DNA from: Minisyncoccia bacterium
Lineage (GTDB): Bacteria; Patescibacteriota; Minisyncoccia; Phycocordibacterales; UBA5272
Direction: 5' to 3'
Assembly (NCBI GenBank): GCA_038256975.1
Contig: JBBSJU010000002.1
Location: 1,064-65,063 of the forward strand
Length of the DNA stretch: 64,000 nt
A program made the translations under genes and the position numbers. Under the pieces are notes generated by a model. It was not told the origin of the DNA and searched no databases. It saw nothing but the letters and a program-made list of their open reading frames with translations. Positions 5,487 to 48,321 of the stretch are shown here, piece by piece (positions within the stretch are counted from its first letter, which is position 1; each line of letters starts with the position of its first letter).

Positions 5487-7145
5487 TTAGTTGTTACCTG
5501 TACGGATAAACTTTTTTATATCGTCAAATGTGCCGCCAACCTTTTTCCTCGGGTTAAGAATGTAGAGGGGGTCAAAGATCTCTTTTGTTTGTTTAAAAAG
5601 TTTATACACATCGGCGCCAAACATTTGAGATAAAAATGGTGTGCGGATAATGCCATCGTTATGCTCTGCGGTGATTGAGCCATTGTAGAGGTGAATTAAG
5701 TCGTATACTTTTTTTGAGAGTTCTAAAATGATATCTCGTGTTTCTGGCAAGGCAAGATCCATGAGTGGAATGATATGAAAATTACCATCTCCTGCGTGCC
5801 CAGCGATTGTGTATGTTAGGTTGTATTCCTTCAGAAGTGCTTGGAGCTTTGGTAAAAACGAAGCCATGTGCTCAGGGCATACGATAAGGTCGTCGATAAA
5901 CGGAGCGGTGCGTCTTCCTGTCATGTGTTTTCGGAGCATGTTAAAACTTTCTCGACGTATTTTCCAATATTTTTCAGCTTCTTTGTTATTTTTTGCTATG
6001 TGACTTTTAAGTCCATATTTACTTGTGACAGCGGCTACTTTTTCAAGTTGTTGCTTAATATTTTTTTGGTCATTTCCTGCGAATTCAACAAGTAGGGTTA
6101 ATTTTGGAATTCCGCCAGTGAGTATCATTTTTGCTTCAGGCAGAAAACGAAATCCAAGTTTAATGGTTTCTATAAAACCCAGGTACTTAAAAAAATCAAA
6201 GAAAAAACGTACCGCAAGCCTCATACTGTAATCGTCGTAAGATTCAAAGCTGTCAGGTTTTAAAGCAACAATGTCGCGTACGATATCACCAAGGTTTTCA
6301 AGTGACGGCATAAAAACCGCAACAACATTCGAATATTTTTCGATTGGAACAAGTGAGAAAGTTATTTCAGTTATGATACCGAGTGTTCCTTGAGATCCAG
6401 TGATTAGTTTACAGAGGTCAAAAGTTTGTGTTTTTTCATCCCAAATATCCCATAGCGCGTATCCTGCTGAGTTTTTAGATACATTTGGTTTTGCTTTTTT
6501 GAGCGCACTTTCATTTGTGCGGATGAGTGTTAAAATTGCTTTGTAAAGATTTCCTTCAAAAGTTGCATGTTGTGTTTTTATTTCAAGTTCTGATTTGGTA
6601 AGAGGAGATATATCGTATACGTTTCCATCAGTGAAAACTACCTTTAGTTTTTGTACGTAGCGTTCTGTTTTTCCAAACTTAATAGTTTTCTCACCACCAC
6701 TATTATTAGCAACCATGCCTCCGACAGTACAGAGATCTTTTGACGCGGTGTAACTTGGAAGCATTGATCCAAACTGTCCGACTACTTTTTCAAAATCTCG
6801 ATAGTAGCATCCTGGCTCAACAGTTACTTGCGTAGCTCCAACCTCAGTTATTTTGTTAATGTATTTTGTAAAATCGAGAATAATCGAATCATTGAGTGGC
6901 CCCCCAGACATATCTGTTCCTGCTGATCTAGCCGTGATAGAAAGTTTTGGAAATTCTTTTTTATGCTCTTGTACAAAACGAATAATTGTTTGAACATCTT
7001 TCGTGTGCTTTGGGTAAATAACAACTTGCGGAGTGATTTCGAAGATACTGGCATCCCGAGAGTAGGTTTTACGTGTTGCAACATCAGTTAAAACATCTCC
7101 ATCGAGTAGTGGGGCAAGTTTTTCAAAAAGGGTTGTGTTTGGCAT
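5487..7145 (-). CDS. FAD-linked oxidase (GlcD / D-lactate dehydrogenase-like, FAD-binding PCMH type)
   Basis: 552 aa; N-terminal FAD-binding region (RSAGTDMSGGPLNDSIILDF...VEPGCYYRDFEKVVG...GGMVANNSGG) and C-terminal oxidase domain (HAGDGNFH). Confidence 0.8.
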   Translation of the reverse strand: MPNTTLFEKLAPLLDGDVLTDVATRKTYSRDASIFEITPQVVIYPKHTKDVQTIIRFVQEHKKEFPKLSITARSAGTDMSGGPLNDSIILDFTKYINKITEVGATQVTVEPGCYYRDFEKVVGQFGSMLPSYTASKDLCTVGGMVANNSGGEKTIKFGKTERYVQKLKVVFTDGNVYDISPLTKSELEIKTQHATFEGNLYKAILTLIRTNESALKKAKPNVSKNSAGYALWDIWDEKTQTFDLCKLITGSQGTLGIITEITFSLVPIEKYSNVVAVFMPSLENLGDIVRDIVALKPDSFESYDDYSMRLAVRFFFDFFKYLGFIETIKLGFRFLPEAKMILTGGIPKLTLLVEFAGNDQKNIKQQLEKVAAVTSKYGLKSHIAKNNKEAEKYWKIRRESFNMLRKHMTGRRTAPFIDDLIVCPEHMASFLPKLQALLKEYNLTYTIAGHAGDGNFHIIPLMDLALPETRDIILELSKKVYDLIHLYNGSITAEHNDGIIRTPFLSQMFGADVYKLFKQTKEIFDPLYILNPRKKVGGTFDDIKKFIRTGNN

Positions 7146-10340: not shown

Positions 10341-11552
10341 ATGTATACATATCTCATATTGGAAATCATCGCATGGCTTCTTGGAGGAATAGTTCTGTTT
10401 TATCTAGTTCTCCATATTCTCCCAGCTCAGCACGGTTTGAGAAAAAAACTTTTTCGTTTTCGTTTCGCTCTCATCATCCTTATTTGTGCAGTGATGTTGG
10501 GAGTGTATTCTCAAAAAACATATCCACCGGATTTTGCTATGCCTGTTTGGATGCACTCATTTGCACCAAATCATCACGCGCCTAATTTACCGCTGGTGAG
10601 TATCGTGTCCTTCTTCCTGAATGCTAATAACTTTGAACGTGTTCTTGATATATCACGAGATCCAAACGATGTCCCCGCACCATTAGAAAGAACCGAATCT
10701 GAGGTGGTCAAAATAGCCATGACCGTTAAGGAAGTAATCTCTGAAATTGCTCCAGGAATATATTTCAATTATTGGACATTTGATGGTCAAGTACCTGGTC
10801 CGATGTTGCGAATTGTAGAGGGTGACACAGTTGAATTATCTTTAACGAATGACAAAACAAGTATTCATCACCACAATATCGATCTCCATGCTGTTACTGG
10901 TCCAGGTGGTGGCTCCGGTCTTACAAGTGCTGCTCCTGGAGAAACAAAGACATTTCGGTGGAAGGCATTGAATCCAGGGCTATACATATATCATTGTGCC
11001 ACAATGAATGTCAGTGTGCATAATTCTCATGGACAGTATGGTTTGATACTTGTTGAACCAAAGGGTGGGTTACCAAAAGTAGACAAAGAATTCTACCTTG
11101 TTCAAGGTGAGTTTTACACTGCGGGTGACATTGGAAGAAAAGGTCTTACTCGTTTCGATTCTCAAGCACTACAAGATGGGATTCCAAATTACGTCGTGTT
11201 CAATGGAAGAATTGAAAATGATACAAAACGAATGAAGGTAAACGCAGGTGACCGTGTCCGTGTATTTGTGGGTAATGGGGGAGTAAATCTTATTTCTTCG
11301 TTCCACATTATTGGAGAAATTTTTGACCGAGTGTATCCGGAAGGTGCAATGGGTGAAGGTTCTACTATTCTAAAAAATGTTCAAACAACGGCCGTATTAC
11401 CAGGGGGCTCTGCGATTGTAGAATTTACTGCTGAAGTACCTGGGGACCTTACTGTTGTGGATCATGCGCTTGCACGTATGAACAAAGGGGCATGGACAAC
11501 TATTCAAGTTGTTGGAAGTTCACGACCAGACATTATTCAGGCGGTTAAGTAG
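10341..11552 (+). CDS. nirK: copper-containing nitrite reductase family protein (NirK-type two-domain cupredoxin) with an N-terminal 2-TM extension
   Basis: HNIDLHAVTG (type1/type2 Cu His pair) and YIYHCATMNVSVHNSHGQYG (HC...H motif) match NirK Cu-ligand motifs. Confidence 0.65.
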   Translation: MYTYLILEIIAWLLGGIVLFYLVLHILPAQHGLRKKLFRFRFALIILICAVMLGVYSQKTYPPDFAMPVWMHSFAPNHHAPNLPLVSIVSFFLNANNFERVLDISRDPNDVPAPLERTESEVVKIAMTVKEVISEIAPGIYFNYWTFDGQVPGPMLRIVEGDTVELSLTNDKTSIHHHNIDLHAVTGPGGGSGLTSAAPGETKTFRWKALNPGLYIYHCATMNVSVHNSHGQYGLILVEPKGGLPKVDKEFYLVQGEFYTAGDIGRKGLTRFDSQALQDGIPNYVVFNGRIENDTKRMKVNAGDRVRVFVGNGGVNLISSFHIIGEIFDRVYPEGAMGEGSTILKNVQTTAVLPGGSAIVEFTAEVPGDLTVVDHALARMNKGAWTTIQVVGSSRPDIIQAVK

Positions 11553-11663
11553 TGGGAAAGTTGGCGCTGAATACTTTATCCGCTTACTACTACCATTTGC
11601 TGCGTGTCTGGGAATGATTTTTAACTCAACGAGGAAGAACTCATCGAGCAACTTGTCGGATTA

Positions 11664-11912
11664 ATGGAAACAATAGATTTAGATGAGATTGGGATAAAAG
11701 AGAAGATGAAAGCCGAAGTGGAGCGTATTAAGAAGTTCCAGAGGGTCATTTTGGGCTCTAAGGAGAAGATTGAGATTAAGGACATAGATATACGTAATTA
11801 TGCAAAATACGTCCTCAGAGAGGCTCGTGATTTAGAGAAACGTGAATTACTTGGATGTTTAAAAAGCAAAATCCTGCTTAGCCAAAAGAAAATTATTCTG
11901 GAAAGATCTTAG
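11664..11912 (+). CDS. hypothetical charged/coiled-coil small protein
   Basis: 82-aa ORF with no motif. Confidence 0.3.
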   Translation: METIDLDEIGIKEKMKAEVERIKKFQRVILGSKEKIEIKDIDIRNYAKYVLREARDLEKRELLGCLKSKILLSQKKIILERS

Positions 11913-16061: not shown

Positions 16062-16135
16062 TGGCTGCCAGACTTGGAATCGAACCAAGATACACAGCTT
16101 CAAAGGCTGTTGTCCTACCTTTAGACGATCTGGCA
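16062..16135 (-). tRNA. tRNA-Gln (anticodon UUG), CCA encoded
   Basis: Reverse complement TGCCAGATCGTCTAAAGGTAGGACAACAGCCTTTGAAGCTGTG...GGTTCGATTCCAAGTCTGGCAGCCA: U1-A72, G73 discriminator, anticodon loop CTTTGAA. Confidence 0.8.
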
Positions 16136-23007: not shown

Positions 23008-23081
23008 AGCGGGATAGAGCAGAGGTAGCTCGTCAGGCTCATAACCTGAAGGCGTCCGTTCGATTCGGACTCCCGCTACCA
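23008..23081 (+). tRNA. tRNA-Met (anticodon CAU; D-loop and anticodon stem resemble initiator type), CCA encoded
   Basis: AGCGGGATAGAGCAGAGGTAGCTCGTCAGGCTCATAACCTGAAGGCGTCCGTTCGATTCGGACTCCCGCTACCA. Confidence 0.8.
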
Positions 23082-23122
23082 AGTCACCCATATAAGTGAA
23101 TTCCCGATATGAAGTGACACAT

Positions 23123-23199
23123 GTCGATATAGCTCAGGTGGTTAGAGCGGAGGACTCATAAGCCTCAGGTCGGTGGTTCGAATCCACCTATCGACACCA
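23123..23199 (+). tRNA. tRNA with CAU anticodon (elongator Met, or Ile2 if lysidine-modified), CCA encoded
   Basis: GTCGATATAGCTCAGGTGGTTAGAGCGGAGGACTCATAAGCCTCAGGTCGGTGGTTCGAATCCACCTATCGACACCA. Confidence 0.8.
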
Positions 23200-23266
23200 T
23201 AACGTACAGTTTTTTAAACCAAAATTGTATGTTATAAATGACGTACCCCACGCAGAAGATGGTTAT

Positions 23267-23340
23267 GCAGTCGTAGCTCAACTGGTTAGAGCGCTGCCCT
23301 GTCACGGCAGAGGTTGAGGGTTCAAGTCCCTTCGACTGCG
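23267..23340 (+). tRNA. tRNA-Asp (anticodon GUC)
   Basis: GCAGTCGTAGCTCAACTGGTTAGAGCGCTGCCCTGTCACGGCAGAGGTTGAGGGTTCAAGTCCCTTCGACTGCG; loop CTGTCAC. Confidence 0.8.
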
Positions 23341-26810: not shown

Positions 26811-26905
26811 AAAGCTAATTCTAGCAAGTTTAGTTAATAAAGTATCATTGACATACTGTGTTCTTATGTTATACTGATGTTAAGCAGGTCATTCCGACCT
26901 GAACC

Positions 26906-27589
26906 GTGAGGTGTCTCATGCGCATTGTTCATTTGTTTCTGACCGTTCTTTTCTTTTTGAGCGCGAATGTTGGTGCTCAAGAATTCTCACTCAATACCTC
27001 AGTGAAGTCGCAATACCTCGGCGCCAATGGCGCCATCTTTGAAGATCAGCCCGTGATGCAGACTGAGGTCTCGGTCAGTCACGGAAACTGTTGGGCATCG
27101 GTCTGGCTTTCGACCGCCGGCGATGCCTGGAAGGTTCGTGCGGGTGACGAGCTCGACTACAATGGAGGCTGCAACTGGAAGGTCGGCGACACAACTGTCG
27201 GCCTGCTGGTTGCCTACTACGACCTTGCTATGTCGGGCGGCGCCTCGGATGTGACAATCAGTTTTGAACGCGGCCCGTACTATGGGAAGCTCTCAAGCTT
27301 TGCCACCCACGGGTTGCCGTTTCCAGGCGGTCAGATTGCACGTGTTGGTCGGAAATTCGCCCTAGGAACTTTCCATGATTGGGATCTCGTTGCAAGCACC
27401 GAGGTTGCCTATGATTTTGGTAGCTTTGGTTTCGAGGAGGGGCTTTTCGGGAAGCTATCTTTGTCGGGGTCTTCCTTGCTCGGTGAATCAGCAAAGTTAT
27501 CTCTCGGTGTCGACTTCAGCGACGGGATTACCGTCGGCGATCGACATGGTGAGCTCGCGACGTGGGTTGGGGTCTCAAGGAATTTTTGA
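26906..27589 (+). CDS. secreted beta-strand-rich protein of unknown function in a GC-rich island
   Basis: Signal-peptide-like N-terminus, alternating Gly/aromatic pattern, C-terminal ...VGVSRNF; local GC clearly above the surrounding genes. Confidence 0.4.
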   Translation: MRCLMRIVHLFLTVLFFLSANVGAQEFSLNTSVKSQYLGANGAIFEDQPVMQTEVSVSHGNCWASVWLSTAGDAWKVRAGDELDYNGGCNWKVGDTTVGLLVAYYDLAMSGGASDVTISFERGPYYGKLSSFATHGLPFPGGQIARVGRKFALGTFHDWDLVASTEVAYDFGSFGFEEGLFGKLSLSGSSLLGESAKLSLGVDFSDGITVGDRHGELATWVGVSRNF

Positions 27590-27618
27590 GACATGCCGAA
27601 TCCAGAACCAAGGCAAAT

Positions 27619-27648
27619 AAACCGGAGCGCGCGCTCCGGTTATTTTTA
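27619..27648 (+). terminator. rho-independent terminator
   Basis: ACCGGAGCGCGCGCTCCGGTtattttta. Confidence 0.7.
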
Positions 27649-27686
27649 TGTTTGACCCGTCACTTTAATTCTGGAATACTCTATAC

Positions 27687-46313: not shown

Positions 46314-47429
46314 ATGTTCGAATTCCTTAAGAAAATTATACCAGGTTCATCTCAAGGTGGTCATGGATCAAGCGTGCTTGGTATTGATATTGGAAGTTCT
46401 GCTATTAAAGTAGTGCAGTTGCGTAAAAAGGATGGTAAAGCAATTCTTGAAACATACGGTGCACTCGCTCTTGGTCCCTATGCTGGCTTGGAAGTAGGGC
46501 AAGCAACCAATTTAGATCAAGTAAAGGTTGCACAAGCACTCACCGATATTATCCGTGAAGCGAAAGTGACTACAAAAGACTGCGCTATAGCCATTCCGCT
46601 TTCGGCAAGCTTAGTGCGCACGGTGACACTTCCTCGGGTGAGTGAAAAAGAATTAGCAACCATGGTTCCTATTGAAGCGCGCAAATATATTCCTGTGCCG
46701 ATCGGAGAGGTAAATTTAGATTGGTGGGTTATTCCAAATCAAGCTGTTGAAAGTGAAACTGAAGACGAAGCGACACGAGTGCCAAAAGTCGAGGTCCTTA
46801 TTGCAGCTATTCATAATGAAACTGTTGAGAAGTACAAAGTCATTAGTCAGACAGCAGGTATAGTGCCTACTTTTTATGAGATAGAACTCTTTAGTACAGT
46901 GCGCTCTGTACTTCGTCGCGAAATGTCGCCAACACTTGTGATAGATATTGGGGCAGGCGCTACAAAAGTTTCTTTGGTGGAGCGTGGGGTACTTAAACGC
47001 TCGCACCACATCAATCGTGGTTCGCAAGACATCACCCTTGCTATCTCCCGATCTCTGGGTGTTTCTATAAAACAAGCCGAAGACATGAAGCGTCGCTATG
47101 GAACGCTTGGCAAAAAAGATGACGATGCTATTCGTGAATTAGTTGAACTCACCTCGGAATTTATTTTTAGCCAAGCTGCTCAAGTTGCGCTTGCGTACGA
47201 ACGCCAAGAAAACAAAATTATTAAAAAAGCAATTCTCACCGGCGGTGGGGCACTGCTTAAAGGTGTACTTACTGATGCGCAAGAAAAACTTGAAATGGAA
47301 GTAATCACAGGACATCCGTTCTCCGTTGTGGAGGCTCCGGTATTTTTACACGATATTCTCTCCCAAGCGGGTCCAGAATTTGCTGTGGCTATTGGTCTTG
47401 CACTTCGCAAACTTGAAGAGTTGGGGTAG
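46314..47429 (+). CDS. pilM: type IV pilus assembly ATPase-like protein PilM
   Basis: Actin-like fold N-terminus GIDIGSSAIKVVQL. Confidence 0.8.
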   Translation: MFEFLKKIIPGSSQGGHGSSVLGIDIGSSAIKVVQLRKKDGKAILETYGALALGPYAGLEVGQATNLDQVKVAQALTDIIREAKVTTKDCAIAIPLSASLVRTVTLPRVSEKELATMVPIEARKYIPVPIGEVNLDWWVIPNQAVESETEDEATRVPKVEVLIAAIHNETVEKYKVISQTAGIVPTFYEIELFSTVRSVLRREMSPTLVIDIGAGATKVSLVERGVLKRSHHINRGSQDITLAISRSLGVSIKQAEDMKRRYGTLGKKDDDAIRELVELTSEFIFSQAAQVALAYERQENKIIKKAILTGGGALLKGVLTDAQEKLEMEVITGHPFSVVEAPVFLHDILSQAGPEFAVAIGLALRKLEELG

Positions 47430-47459
47430 TTGACAGATGTAGTACTTTTGTGCTATAAT
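47430..47459 (+). promoter_or_regulatory. strong sigma70-like promoter with extended -10
   Basis: TTGACA, 18 nt, TGcTATAAT. Confidence 0.55.
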
Positions 47460-47607
47460 GAAAAGAGTCAAAAAGCTCTTTAAAACAAGGTTTGCCCTAG
47501 CTTTAAGTATTTAGAAAATTTGAATATTTGAAGCTGGGGTAGAACTAAGGGTCATTTCGACCTAAGCTATTCTTGCAAGGCGAAATTCCATACAGGAGAA
47601 AAGCGCC

Positions 47608-48168
47608 ATGGGTAACCATAACGAATTCGTAGCACAGGTGGTACGTCATCTACCAGAGATGACGGTCGCGGTCCGGCAACATTGGATAAAAAATCCAGGT
47701 CTGCTCAAGACGGCTTTGGCAACCGCCCTTGCCACCACCTTCCTGACGGGTGAGTACTTCATTACTCGTCCAGGGCTCTGGGTATCCACCGACTTCAAGT
47801 TGCGGATCACTTCCGCCTACCCCGAAGCACTTGTGCCCCGGGGACTTCATGGGGTGGAAAGTTTTGATTTGACGAATGGCTCGTCGGACCAAGACATCCT
47901 CACCAAGATGGGCGGCGAAGAAAACGTGCTCAAGCACGCTTTTACTCCCGATCAGCTCAGCGACCTGATCAATCTCCAGGAAAATGGGGAGTCTGGCCAG
48001 CTTCAGAACAACGGCTGCGCCAATCTATTCTACGTGGTTGGTGCAAACGGAGTGCTCTTCGTGGTCAGCGTCCTCTGGTACGCTGACGGTCGTGGGTGGA
48101 GCGTGAGCGCGTGGGAGCTCGGTGGGGTTCGCTGGCCTGCGGGTCTTCGGGTTTTTCGCAACACCTAG
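47608..48168 (+). CDS. hypothetical protein, GC-rich stand-alone cassette inserted between pilM and pilN
   Basis: AGGAG SD 9 nt before ATG; own consensus promoter and terminator; GC far above neighbours; no recognisable domain. Confidence 0.45.
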   Translation: MGNHNEFVAQVVRHLPEMTVAVRQHWIKNPGLLKTALATALATTFLTGEYFITRPGLWVSTDFKLRITSAYPEALVPRGLHGVESFDLTNGSSDQDILTKMGGEENVLKHAFTPDQLSDLINLQENGESGQLQNNGCANLFYVVGANGVLFVVSVLWYADGRGWSVSAWELGGVRWPAGLRVFRNT

Positions 48169-48210
48169 ACTTTTTGATTCTGAGGTTAAGAAATAAAATT
48201 TGTTTTACTT

Positions 48211-48246
48211 TGCCCGCGGCGTTCCTACGCCGCGGGTCTTTCTTTT
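48211..48246 (+). terminator. rho-independent terminator
   Basis: CCCGCGGCGttcctaCGCCGCGGGtctttcttttg. Confidence 0.7.
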
Positions 48247-48321
48247 GTATTAAAAAGGGAATAACTATCAACACTTGCTATAGCCAAAAAAAAGGTGGAA
48301 GGGTATACTATAGAGTAAGTT

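What the first reader, a model, noticed from the sequence alone, without database searches (positions are those of the whole stretch)
47430..48248. GC-rich promoter-ORF-terminator cassette inserted inside the type IV pilus operon
A near-consensus promoter (TTGACA-18-TGcTATAAT), an AGGAG SD, a 186-aa ORF with no recognisable domain, and a strong GC-clamp terminator (CCCGCGGCG...CGCCGCGGG) form a self-contained unit between pilM and pilN. Its GC content is far above the flanking pil genes, which suggests horizontal acquisition. A foreign, strongly expressed gene embedded in the pilus assembly locus could be a pilus-associated accessory or effector protein, or a selfish insertion.
Basis: seen in the sequence. 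Interest (0 to 1): 0.6.

Follow-up and report, generated by a model that had tools for sequence, protein, structure and literature searches.

The report
Stand-alone DGR hypervariable-protein gene cassette
The GC-rich gene wedged between pilM and pilN is not a pilus part: it is a self-contained copy of a gene family whose tip is rewritten by a diversity-generating retroelement in tiny CPR bacteria, and it was inserted here only in this lineage.

Summary
A perfect sigma-70 promoter, an SD, a 186-aa ORF (GC 56% against 41% for the window) and a GC-clamp terminator form an ~820-bp unit right after the pilM stop codon.

The three closest relatives (PilM 86-93% identical, same synteny) have pilM directly followed by pilN. 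The unit is therefore a lineage-specific insertion. Homologs elsewhere are never in pilus loci.

The ORF belongs to a large unannotated CPR protein family whose C-terminal ~115 nt is a DGR variable region. In five homolog loci the gene is followed by a template repeat, an Avd gene and a reverse transcriptase, and 90 of 95 VR/TR mismatches lie at template adenines. Stand-alone copies of one such cassette match a template repeat found on another contig at all but one non-adenine position each, which is consistent with diversification in trans.

The window holds no template repeat, Avd or RT. Whether this copy is still diversified is unresolved, because the rest of the genome could not be reached.

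The cassette also carries a conserved structured 5' leader (a 25-bp helix plus a small hairpin, with covariation, not in Rfam). An unrelated DGR target shares this leader.

Verdict: a new variant of a known kind, of moderate interest.

The parts
47430..48250 (+). Whole inserted cassette (promoter to end of terminator T-run), absent from the pilM-pilN junction of the closest relatives
   Evidence: Junction alignment with L025, L027 and L028: homology stops at the pilM stop codon (47427-47429) and resumes at about 48250-48276. Relatives have a 75-110 bp pilM-pilN spacer.
47430..47459 (+). Sigma-70-type promoter TTGACA-18-TG-TATAAT
   Evidence: 12/12 match with extended -10 TG. The same promoter type precedes cassettes in L003, L007, L011, L001, L013 and L020.
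47466..47607 (+). Structured 5' leader (the transcription start near 47466 is inferred, not shown)
   Evidence: Covariance model of the leader scores 100.9 bits on the + strand and 32 bits on the - strand. MFE fold.
47491..47543 (+). P1: 25-bp near-perfect hairpin (5' arm 47491-47515, 3-nt loop, 3' arm 47519-47543). In most other cassettes its apex carries a ~150-nt structured insert.
   Evidence: Folds identically in 9 independent leaders. 97.6% of cells paired, 4 pairs with double compensatory changes, 0/500 shuffles reach the covariation score, and slid controls fall to 27-50% paired. Invariant G.U pairs point to RNA on the + strand.
47549..47563 (+). P2: small hairpin GGGUC-AUUUC-GACCU just before the SD region
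   Evidence: Predicted in all leaders. Compensatory variants GGUC/GACC, GACC/GGUC, GAUC/GAUC and GAUC/GAUU. A near-identical hairpin precedes the second GC-rich cassette at 26886-26900.
47594..47598 (+). Shine-Dalgarno AGGAG
   Evidence: Read directly from the sequence; 9-nt spacer to the ATG.
47608..48168 (+). 186-aa ORF, member of a large unannotated CPR protein family that serves as a DGR target (variable protein)
   Evidence: 29 close homologs. 2,319 cluster representatives at E<=1e-3 in the exhaustive profile search. No Pfam domain in the ORF or in 10 diverse members. AF2 model pLDDT 88.9. No signal peptide or TM segment.
48052..48165 (+). Variable region (VR): the stretch homologous to the TR-matched region of family members. 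The hypervariable codons lie in 48067-48147 (residues 154-180).
   Evidence: VR/TR pairs in L010, L015, L016, L021 and L023 cover the homologous stretch, with 90/95 mismatches at TR adenines. Differences between near-identical cassettes fall at codon positions 1-2 of the same codons. Column entropy alternates between >=2.5 bits and invariant W157/W164/W176/R181. The VR is 6% A and 69% GC.
48148..48162 (+). IMH-like constant 3' end of the VR (CGGGTTTTTCGCAAC)
   Evidence: The same sequence (CGGGTCTTTCGCAAC) ends the A-to-N zone in all VR/TR pairs of the family. Its function is inferred from the Bordetella phage DGR model (PMC5758913).
48212..48247 (+). GC-clamp hairpin (11 bp, loop TTCC) plus T-run: an intrinsic terminator and the right end of the cassette. 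It may also serve as the GC-rich inverted repeat that aids DGR target recognition.
   Evidence: Every cassette ends with an equivalent hairpin followed by TTTTnTTTTG, after which the flanks become unrelated. [quoted passage not shown]

Best explanation
The cassette is a stand-alone target gene of a CPR-type diversity-generating retroelement (DGR).

The 186-aa protein has a variable N-terminal helical module and a conserved ~140-residue core. The last ~35 residues of that core are encoded by the variable region (48052-48165).

In this family, a DGR unit (template repeat, Avd, reverse transcriptase) transcribes the template repeat and reverse-transcribes it with random misincorporation opposite adenines. 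The resulting cDNA replaces the VR. This rewrites about 11-15 codons that alternate with invariant Trp/Arg scaffold residues, producing a very large repertoire of a presumed ligand-binding surface.

The gene sits on an autonomous ~820-bp unit with its own strong promoter, a structured 5' leader (P1 and P2) that probably controls expression, and a terminator. This unit was inserted immediately after the pilM stop codon in this lineage only. The location is incidental and the protein is not a pilus component.

The DGR core is not within this 64-kb window. If this copy is still diversified, that happens in trans from elsewhere in the genome.

Shown: the cassette anatomy; that it is an insertion; that it belongs to a family with A-specific VR/TR pairs; and the covarying leader helices.

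Inferred: that this particular copy is currently diversified; ligand binding; leader function; and the mechanism of insertion.
For: 1. Family-level DGR proof. In L010, L015, L016, L021 and L023 the homolog's 3' end has a second copy 310-430 bp downstream. Mismatches at TR adenines are 15/16, 13/14, 21/22, 21/22 and 20/21, while adenines are about 27% of the TR. An Avd-like ORF on the minus strand follows the TR, and an RT follows that where the contig is long enough (L016, L021, L023; L010 and L015 end within or just after Avd). Precomputed Pfam calls bAvd and RVT_1 for the equivalent genes of the L003 DGR.
2. Three ~98%-identical cassettes (L010, L011, L012) differ almost only at codon positions 1-2 of specific VR codons.
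3. Evidence consistent with action in trans. The stand-alone copies L011 and L012/L017 differ from the TR of L010 at 14/15 and 18/19 adenine positions. Their flanks differ, and L017 has 1.8 kb downstream without a TR.
4. The window ORF aligns over the whole VR scaffold, including the IMH-like end. Its variable codons keep non-A third positions, as expected of AAY/AAG-templated codons. The VR is 6% A.
5. It is an insertion: empty sites in L025, L027 and L028, with a sharp left boundary at 47429/47430 and a right boundary within about 48250-48276.
6. Literature. CPR DGRs form their own clade, and their targets typically lack any recognisable domain or TM segment. Remote targets are missed by standard pipelines (PMC8144416). 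DGRs can act on non-adjacent targets (PMC5758913).
Against: No TR, Avd or RT lies in the 64-kb window, that is within at least 47 kb upstream and 16 kb downstream. The rest of the source genome could not be reached: it is not in genome contigs and not in the gene index. So this copy has not been shown to have a cognate TR.

Its VR is one codon shorter than in most relatives (LGGV-RW against LGEVGGW), so only a TR of matching length would fit.

In L003 the neighbouring DGR's TR matches a different, unrelated target and not the family member 5 kb away. Proximity to a DGR therefore does not guarantee targeting.

L010, L011, L012 and L017 come from different metagenomes, so the trans evidence is indirect.

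The C-type-lectin fold usual for DGR variable proteins was not recovered: best Foldseek CLec hit E = 0.28, TM about 0.25, and no PDB sequence-profile hit.
Confidence: 0.8

Rival explanations
1. Orphan or fossil target. The cassette descends from a DGR target but this genome has no cognate TR/RT, so the VR is frozen and the protein acts as a fixed-specificity binder, or is on its way to decay.
For: No TR, Avd or RT in 64 kb. One-codon deletion in the VR relative to most family TRs. Most stand-alone family loci show no TR within +/-10 kb. In L003 the nearby DGR serves another target.
Against: The ORF is intact, with a perfect promoter, an SD and a conserved IMH-like end. Stand-alone copies L011, L012 and L017 are compatible with a TR located elsewhere. 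P0029 shares the shorter VR length, so a matching TR class may exist. More than half of the source contig and the other contigs were not examined.
Confidence: 0.35
2. Lineage-specific type IV pilus accessory protein or pilus-delivered effector.
For: Position between pilM and pilN, on the same strand as the pil genes.
Against: Closest relatives with identical pil synteny lack it. None of about 15 homolog loci is in a pil locus. It has its own promoter and terminator. It has no signal peptide, TM segment or prepilin motif.
Confidence: 0.03
3. Selfish mobile DNA (an IS/MITE-like element or integron gene cassette) whose ORF is incidental cargo.
For: A discrete unit found in many genomic contexts with sharp boundaries. 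A conserved internal inverted repeat, P1.
Against: No transposase or integrase in or next to the unit. No terminal inverted repeats or target-site duplication at 47429/47430 or at the right boundary near 48250-48276. P1 is internal (47491-47543), not at a junction, and its conserved G.U pairs indicate an RNA helix. The boundaries coincide with the -35 box and the terminator, not with recombination sites.
Confidence: 0.07
4. Phage-derived 'moron': a promoter-gene-terminator unit of foreign composition left by, or transferred from, a CPR phage.
For: The architecture and GC contrast fit the moron definition. One family member (P0028, L008) lies in a phage-like region with an ERF recombinase, a DNA methylase and a GH19 lysin.
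Against: The flanks here are chromosomal and syntenic with relatives, and no prophage genes adjoin. This idea concerns origin only and is compatible with the DGR-target identity. The leader pattern found nothing in IMG/VR.
Confidence: 0.15

Closest known systems
DGR variable (target) proteins of CPR bacteria (DGR 'clade 2' of Roux et al. 2021, PMC8144416; 'CPR set' with unassigned VR classes UVR1-6 of Wu et al. 2018, PMC5758913)
   Same: Small protein with no recognisable domain or TM segment. C-terminal VR templated by a TR with AAY codons. Target-TR-Avd-RT locus layout in family members. Host lineage Paceibacteria/Minisyncoccia.
   Different: This copy is a stand-alone cassette with its own promoter, structured leader and terminator, at least 16-47 kb from any DGR core. 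[quoted passage not shown] I could not check whether this VR class is one of UVR1-6.
Non-adjacent or remote DGR targets (for example the Treponema denticola DGR with seven non-adjacent targets; PMC5758913, PMC4891356)
   Same: One TR/RT serving VRs elsewhere in the genome. Conserved IMH-like end, and a GC-rich inverted repeat downstream of the VR.
   Different: Different protein families and folds (CLec/FGE-type lipoproteins there). No conserved 5' leader RNA or cassette-like dispersal is described for those.
Bordetella phage BPP-1 Mtd / brt DGR (prototype)
   Same: Adenine-specific TR-to-VR information transfer. VR at the extreme 3' end of the ORF. A constant IMH-like end followed by a GC-rich hairpin.
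   Different: Mtd is a phage tail-fibre tip with a proven C-type-lectin fold. Here the AF2 model (pLDDT 89) has no significant PDB neighbour, the protein is cellular with no export signal, and the hairpin lies 45 nt past the stop codon and looks like an ordinary terminator.
Phage 'morons' (autonomous promoter-gene-terminator units of atypical composition)
   Same: Same cassette anatomy and compositional contrast, inserted between two genes of an otherwise conserved block.
   Different: The host here is a chromosome, not a prophage, and the cargo is a DGR target.
RT-10 RNA motif (Weinberg et al. 2017, PMC5737381), the only DGR-linked structured RNA I found in the literature
   Same: A structured RNA associated with DGR systems.
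   Different: [quoted passage not shown] The leader here lies in the 5' UTR of target genes and has no Rfam match.

Membership tests
DGR target gene (variable protein) | A VR in the ORF with a cognate TR that differs from it almost only at TR adenines | tested here: inconclusive
   Met for the family: 5 loci, 90/95 mismatches at TR adenines, plus 3 stand-alone copies against the L010 TR. For the window copy no TR exists in 64 kb, and the rest of the genome was unreachable.
DGR target gene (variable protein) | A DGR-type reverse transcriptase (usually with Avd) in the same genome | not testable with these tools
   None in the window by tblastn with family RT and Avd queries. Family loci L003, L016, L021 and L023 have an Avd-like ORF on the minus strand followed by an RT; L010 and L015 show the Avd but their contigs end before any RT. 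The remaining ~68 kb of the source contig and the other contigs are not available.
DGR target gene (variable protein) | Hypervariability confined to first and second positions of codons templated by AAY, alternating with an invariant scaffold | tested here: met
   L010/L011/L012 alignment. Entropy profile of residues 150-186. The window VR aligns to this scaffold.
DGR target gene (variable protein) | A constant IMH-like 3' end of the VR, often followed by a GC-rich inverted repeat | tested here: met
   CGGGTTTTTCGCAAC at 48148-48162 is conserved with the ends of the family VR/TR pairs. An 11-bp GC hairpin lies at 48212-48237. Function not tested, and the hairpin also fits an ordinary terminator.
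DGR target gene (variable protein) | VR displayed on a C-type-lectin (or Ig) fold. This is common but not strictly defining. | tested here: inconclusive
Type IV pilus assembly component or accessory | Conserved presence in orthologous pil loci | tested here: not met
   Absent from the pilM-pilN junction of L025, L027 and L028. Homologs lie in non-pil contexts.
IS / MITE-type transposable element | Terminal inverted repeats, target-site duplication, and a transposase in autonomous copies | tested here: not met
   The junction alignment shows neither a TSD nor terminal repeats. The only ORF is the DGR-target homolog.
Integron gene cassette | A promoterless ORF ending in an attC site at the cassette boundary, in an array next to intI | tested here: not met
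   The cassette has its own promoter. The only long inverted repeat (P1) is internal and upstream of the ORF, with RNA-type G.U pairs. It is a single unit, not an array. The window was not searched for integrases.
Known RNA families (Rfam 15) for the 5' leader | A match to a curated covariance model | tested here: not met
   Only chance-level hits around the window cassette (E > 3). No gathering-score hit other than tRNAs in the whole window or rRNA in L007. Nothing over the leaders at E <= 1 for L003.

The most novel reading that the evidence does not exclude
CPR bacteria carry dispersed, self-contained 'plug-in' DGR target cassettes (promoter, regulatory leader RNA, hypervariable-protein gene, terminator). 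These cassettes move between genomic sites and genomes and are diversified in trans by a DGR core located elsewhere. A previously undescribed cis-regulatory RNA class controls their expression. It consists of a conserved 25-28-bp helix, with or without a ~150-nt covarying aptamer-like domain, and is shared by unrelated target families. This would be the first regulatory RNA dedicated to DGR variable proteins.
Probability: 0.3. Interest if true: 0.7.

Novelty: new variant of a known kind. Interest (0 to 1): 0.5.

Why it matters
DGRs are unusually abundant in CPR bacteria and are thought to help these tiny episymbionts adapt their binding proteins. Their targets are almost entirely uncharacterised, and standard pipelines detect only targets next to the RT (PMC8144416).

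This case suggests a much larger hidden pool of targets. A domain family with about 2,300 cluster representatives and no Pfam entry includes many stand-alone copies that carry their own promoter and terminator.

The sharp insertion boundaries, together with empty sites in sister genomes, give a clean example of how such cassettes spread.

The conserved, covarying 5' leader is shared with an unrelated DGR target. It offers a testable handle on when variable proteins are expressed, which is currently unknown for any CPR DGR.

Tried and rejected
- Domain searches of the ORF in Pfam, PHROGs, NCBIfam and PADLOC found nothing. Ten diverse family members also gave no Pfam hit.
- A TR was sought in the window by blastn (word size 7) and by a family TR regex: none.
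- A degenerate 'VR base or A' pattern was run against genome contigs. It returned 0 hits, not even the VR itself, so the source genome is not in that collection. The pattern was verified on the window.
- The look-up of encoding contigs for the ORF and for P0001, intended to reach the rest of the 131.7-kb contig, returned 'not on record'. The listing of cluster members gave no accession or organism name.
- The anti-SD (GYUCUUU) to SD sequestration idea beat shuffled controls in only 3 of 9 leaders, and not in the window's (p about 0.23). It is kept as a hint only.
- The leader pattern in IMG/VR viral contigs gave 0 hits.
- P1 as a DNA recombination site or cruciform was rejected. It is internal to the insertion, and its conserved G.U pairs would be C.A mismatches on the other strand.
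- Gene-wide adenine depletion, as whole-transcript mutagenic retro-copying would cause, was rejected. The AT skew of the ORF is near zero and only the VR is A-poor.
- The main CPR DGR paper (Paul et al. 2017) is not held. I could not check whether this exact VR class or these stand-alone cassettes were already described there.

Full report
**1.

At 47430-47459 there is a 12/12 sigma-70 consensus (TTGACA, 18 nt, TATAAT) with an extended -10 TG. It is the only perfect site in the 9 kb scanned. Weaker promoter-like sites there are no more common than in shuffles. AGGAG (47594-47598) lies 9 nt before the ATG of a 186-aa ORF (47608-48168). An 11-bp hairpin with 9 G-C pairs and a T-rich tail (48212-48247) is the best terminator-like site in the region.

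The ORF is a strong compositional outlier. Its GC is 0.561 against 0.412 +/- 0.036 for 42 other ORFs (z = 4.2), and its GC3 is 0.647 against 0.345 +/- 0.063 (z = 4.8). The leader and trailer of the unit have ordinary GC of 0.37-0.40.

The upstream gene is PilM (PF11104, E = 1e-38). PilO (PF04350), two T2SSE ATPases and a T2SSF protein follow downstream. The gene called 'pilN' is named by position only. The ORF has no hit in Pfam, PHROGs, NCBIfam or PADLOC.

**2. It is a lineage-specific insertion, and not a pilus gene.**

The three closest PilM relatives I could place on contigs (93%, 91% and 86% identity; L025, L027, L028) share the whole neighbourhood: ispA-like, nitroreductase, a minus-strand gene, pilM, pilN, and, in L025 and L028, pilO, a small ORF, two ATPases, the platform protein and a pilin gene; the L027 contig ends just after the start of pilO. 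In all three, pilM is followed directly by pilN across a 75-110 bp spacer.

In the junction alignment, homology stops at the pilM stop codon (47427-47429). The cassette starts at the very next base with the -35 hexamer. Homology resumes around 48250-48276, just past the terminator T-run. I saw no target-site duplication or terminal inverted repeats.

A conserved GGTATACT element precedes pilN in all four genomes. This suggests that pilN may have its own promoter and that the site tolerates a terminator. That is an inference only.

Homologs of the ORF sit in unrelated places and never in a pil locus:
- between a holB-like gene and frr (L001);
- between an epimerase gene and rplY (L003);
- next to uvrD (L005);
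- upstream of rplJ (L007);
- in a phage-like region with an ERF recombinase, a DNA methylase and a GH19 lysin (L008).

**3. What the ORF is.**

A word-indexed search found 29 unnamed homologs from Paceibacteria/Minisyncoccia. An exhaustive profile search found 2,319 cluster representatives at E <= 1e-3, of which 956 are at E <= 1e-10. Nearly all are 140-230 aa, and none of ten diverse members hits Pfam.

The alignment shows three interchangeable N-terminal modules and a conserved core. The C-terminus alternates invariant residues (W157, W164, W176, R181, VFRNT) with positions of 2.5 bits entropy or more (154, 156, 158, 161, 163, 165, 167, 174, 175, 177, 180).

The lead came from L003, where a bAvd/RVT_1 pair lies 5 kb from the homolog.

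Direct tests followed. In L010, L015, L016, L021 and L023 the last ~115 nt of the homolog is repeated 310-430 bp downstream. The mismatches between the two copies fall at adenines of the downstream copy in 15/16, 13/14, 21/22, 21/22 and 20/21 cases, while adenines make up about 27% of that copy. Each downstream copy is followed by an Avd-like four-helix ORF on the minus strand. An RT follows where the contig continues far enough, in L016, L021 and L023. This is the defining signature of a diversity-generating retroelement, with the layout target(VR)-TR-Avd-RT.

Three ~98%-identical cassettes (L010, L011, L012) differ almost only at first and second positions of the same VR codons.

The window ORF aligns across the whole scaffold. 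By homology its VR is 48052-48165, its hypervariable codons lie in 48067-48147, and the IMH-like constant end CGGGTTTTTCGCAAC is at 48148-48162. The VR is 6% A.

**4. Is this copy served by a DGR?**

The window contains no TR (blastn at word size 7, and a family TR regex) and no RT or Avd (tblastn). Any DGR core is therefore at least 47 kb upstream or 16 kb downstream, or on another contig.

I encoded the rule 'TR base = VR base or A' as an IUPAC pattern. It finds the VR in the window but nothing in the species-representative genome collection, so the source genome is not there. The gene index does not hold this contig either. The question is therefore open for this copy.

Indirect support for action in trans comes from L011 and L012/L017. 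These are stand-alone copies of the cassette that is adjacent to a TR in L010. Their flanks diverge at or within 28 nt after the terminator, and L017 has 1.8 kb downstream with no TR. Even so, their VRs differ from the L010 TR at 14/15 and 18/19 adenine positions.

There are caveats. Those contigs come from different metagenomes. In L003 the neighbouring DGR templates a different, unrelated 201-aa target and not the family member nearby. The window VR is one codon shorter than most.

I put about 0.5-0.6 on this copy being currently diversified, and about 0.35 on it being an orphan.

**5. The cassette as a unit.**

Stand-alone copies share a stereotyped transcription unit:
- a near-consensus promoter;
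- a leader;
- a GC-rich ORF (GC 0.50-0.60 against 0.37-0.46 in the flanks in nearly all loci; the phage-like L008 copy is 0.46 against 0.38);
- a GC-clamp terminator ending TTTTnTTTTG, after which the flanks become unrelated.

The architecture matches that of phage morons, but the setting here is chromosomal. How the unit inserts is unknown.

**6. The 5' leader.**

Nine leaders folded independently give the same architecture. A 25-28-bp near-perfect helix P1 (47491-47543 here) closes a 3-4-nt loop in the window and L020, and a ~130-165-nt branched insert in the others. A small hairpin P2 follows (47549-47563 here).

I made an alignment with the inserts excised, keeping 3 nt each side. On it:
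- 97.6% of P1 cells pair;
- four P1 pairs and two P2 pairs show double compensatory changes;
- 0 of 500 shuffles reach the observed covariation score;
- sliding the partners drops pairing to 27-50%.

With nine related sequences this is moderate evidence, not conclusive. Invariant G.U pairs, and a far higher model score on the plus strand (100.9 against 32 bits), indicate an RNA structure.

The covariance model also finds the leader upstream of the family genes in L024 and in the cis-type locus L015. It finds no other copy in the window. The leader also precedes the unrelated DGR target in L003 (10493-11098). Rfam has no match.

A 5' GYUCUUU element could pair with the SD. This beats shuffled controls in only 3 of 9 leaders and not in the window's.

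My working guess is that P1/P2 is a processing or protein-binding element, and that in the long version the leader is a ligand-sensing element controlling translation. This is speculation.

**7. Protein structure and location.**

AlphaFold2 on the 29-sequence alignment gives a confident model (pLDDT 88.9). It has three N-terminal helices and then an alpha/beta core. The last four strands (138-185) carry the VR.

There is no signal peptide or TM segment in the family. This matches published remarks on CPR DGR targets (PMC8144416).

**8. Comparison with what is known, and novelty.**

DGRs in CPR bacteria, their separate RT clade and their domain-less small targets are known (PMC8144416, PMC5758913). 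Non-adjacent targets are known in other lineages. [quoted passage not shown] Roux et al. note that their pipeline cannot see remote targets (PMC8144416).

The ORF is therefore a member of a known kind. The following aspects appear new relative to what I could read:
- the autonomous promoter-leader-ORF-terminator packaging;
- its dispersal to unrelated sites, with a clean occupied-versus-empty comparison;
- the covarying leader RNA shared by unrelated targets;
- the size of the uncurated protein family.

I could not read Paul et al. 2017, which may already cover some of this.

Interest is 0.5. A DGR specialist would find the identity itself unsurprising, but the cassette and leader aspects are worth following.

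Noticed in passing
window 26850-27650: A second GC-rich promoter-ORF-terminator unit lies between a CorA-like gene (minus strand) and an S41 peptidase gene. It has TTGACA-17-TATACT and a pre-SD hairpin AGGTCATTCCGACCT (26886-26900) nearly identical to P2 of the pil cassette. The ORF runs 26918-27589 (GC 0.54, GC3 0.60), has a signal-peptide-like N-terminus (MRIVHLFLTVLFFLSANVGAQ) and no Pfam hit. The terminator is at 27620-27647. Only four unnamed homologs exist. There is no sequence similarity to the 186-aa ORF and no evidence yet that it is a DGR target.
   Followed up: partly
L003 5805-5932 and 10262-10425; L007 1827-1993; L011 221-374; L013 1072-1220; L014 1825-1981; L001 5775-5908: In most cassettes the apex of leader helix P1 carries a ~130-165-nt multi-branched RNA domain. 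RNAalifold on six versions predicts 35 pairs, 23 of them kept through double compensatory changes. There is no Rfam match. It is a candidate new cis-regulatory (riboswitch-like) RNA of CPR DGR target genes, and it is absent from the window's minimal leader.
   Followed up: partly
L003 10493-11098 (target), 11445-11545 (TR), 11564-11785 (Avd, minus strand), 11957 onward (RT): A complete DGR whose target is a different GC-rich 201-aa protein, unrelated in sequence to the window ORF. That target carries the same promoter, leader and trailer design. The family member 5 kb upstream (6001-6606) is not matched by this TR.
   Followed up: partly
L008 10001-10483 (and L009): One family member (P0028, 160 aa, no N-terminal module, no leader) sits in a phage-like block of small ORFs with an ERF recombinase, an N6/N4 DNA methylase and a GH19 lysin. 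This hints at a phage route for spreading the family. Its VR end is 100% identical over 33-36 nt to those of L003 and L001.
   Followed up: no
P0150 (926 aa; from the exhaustive search): One protein matches the family profile in five separate stretches, so it may contain tandem copies of the domain. All other top hits are single-domain proteins of 140-230 aa.
   Followed up: no
window 48276-48321, and the equivalent spacers of L025, L027 and L028: A conserved TGCTATA...A-run...GGTATACT element lies just upstream of pilN in all four genomes. It may be a pilN promoter, which would explain why a terminator-bearing insertion is tolerated between pilM and pilN.
   Followed up: no
window 48121-48135: The window VR lacks one codon relative to most family members (LGGV-RW against LGEVGGW). 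Only P0029 among the 29 close homologs shares this length. A cognate TR would need the same length, or this is a post-homing deletion.
   Followed up: no
window 23008-23340 (plus strand) and 16065-16135 (minus strand): Three clustered tRNA genes and one isolated tRNA gene are the only Rfam gathering-score hits in the window.
   Followed up: no
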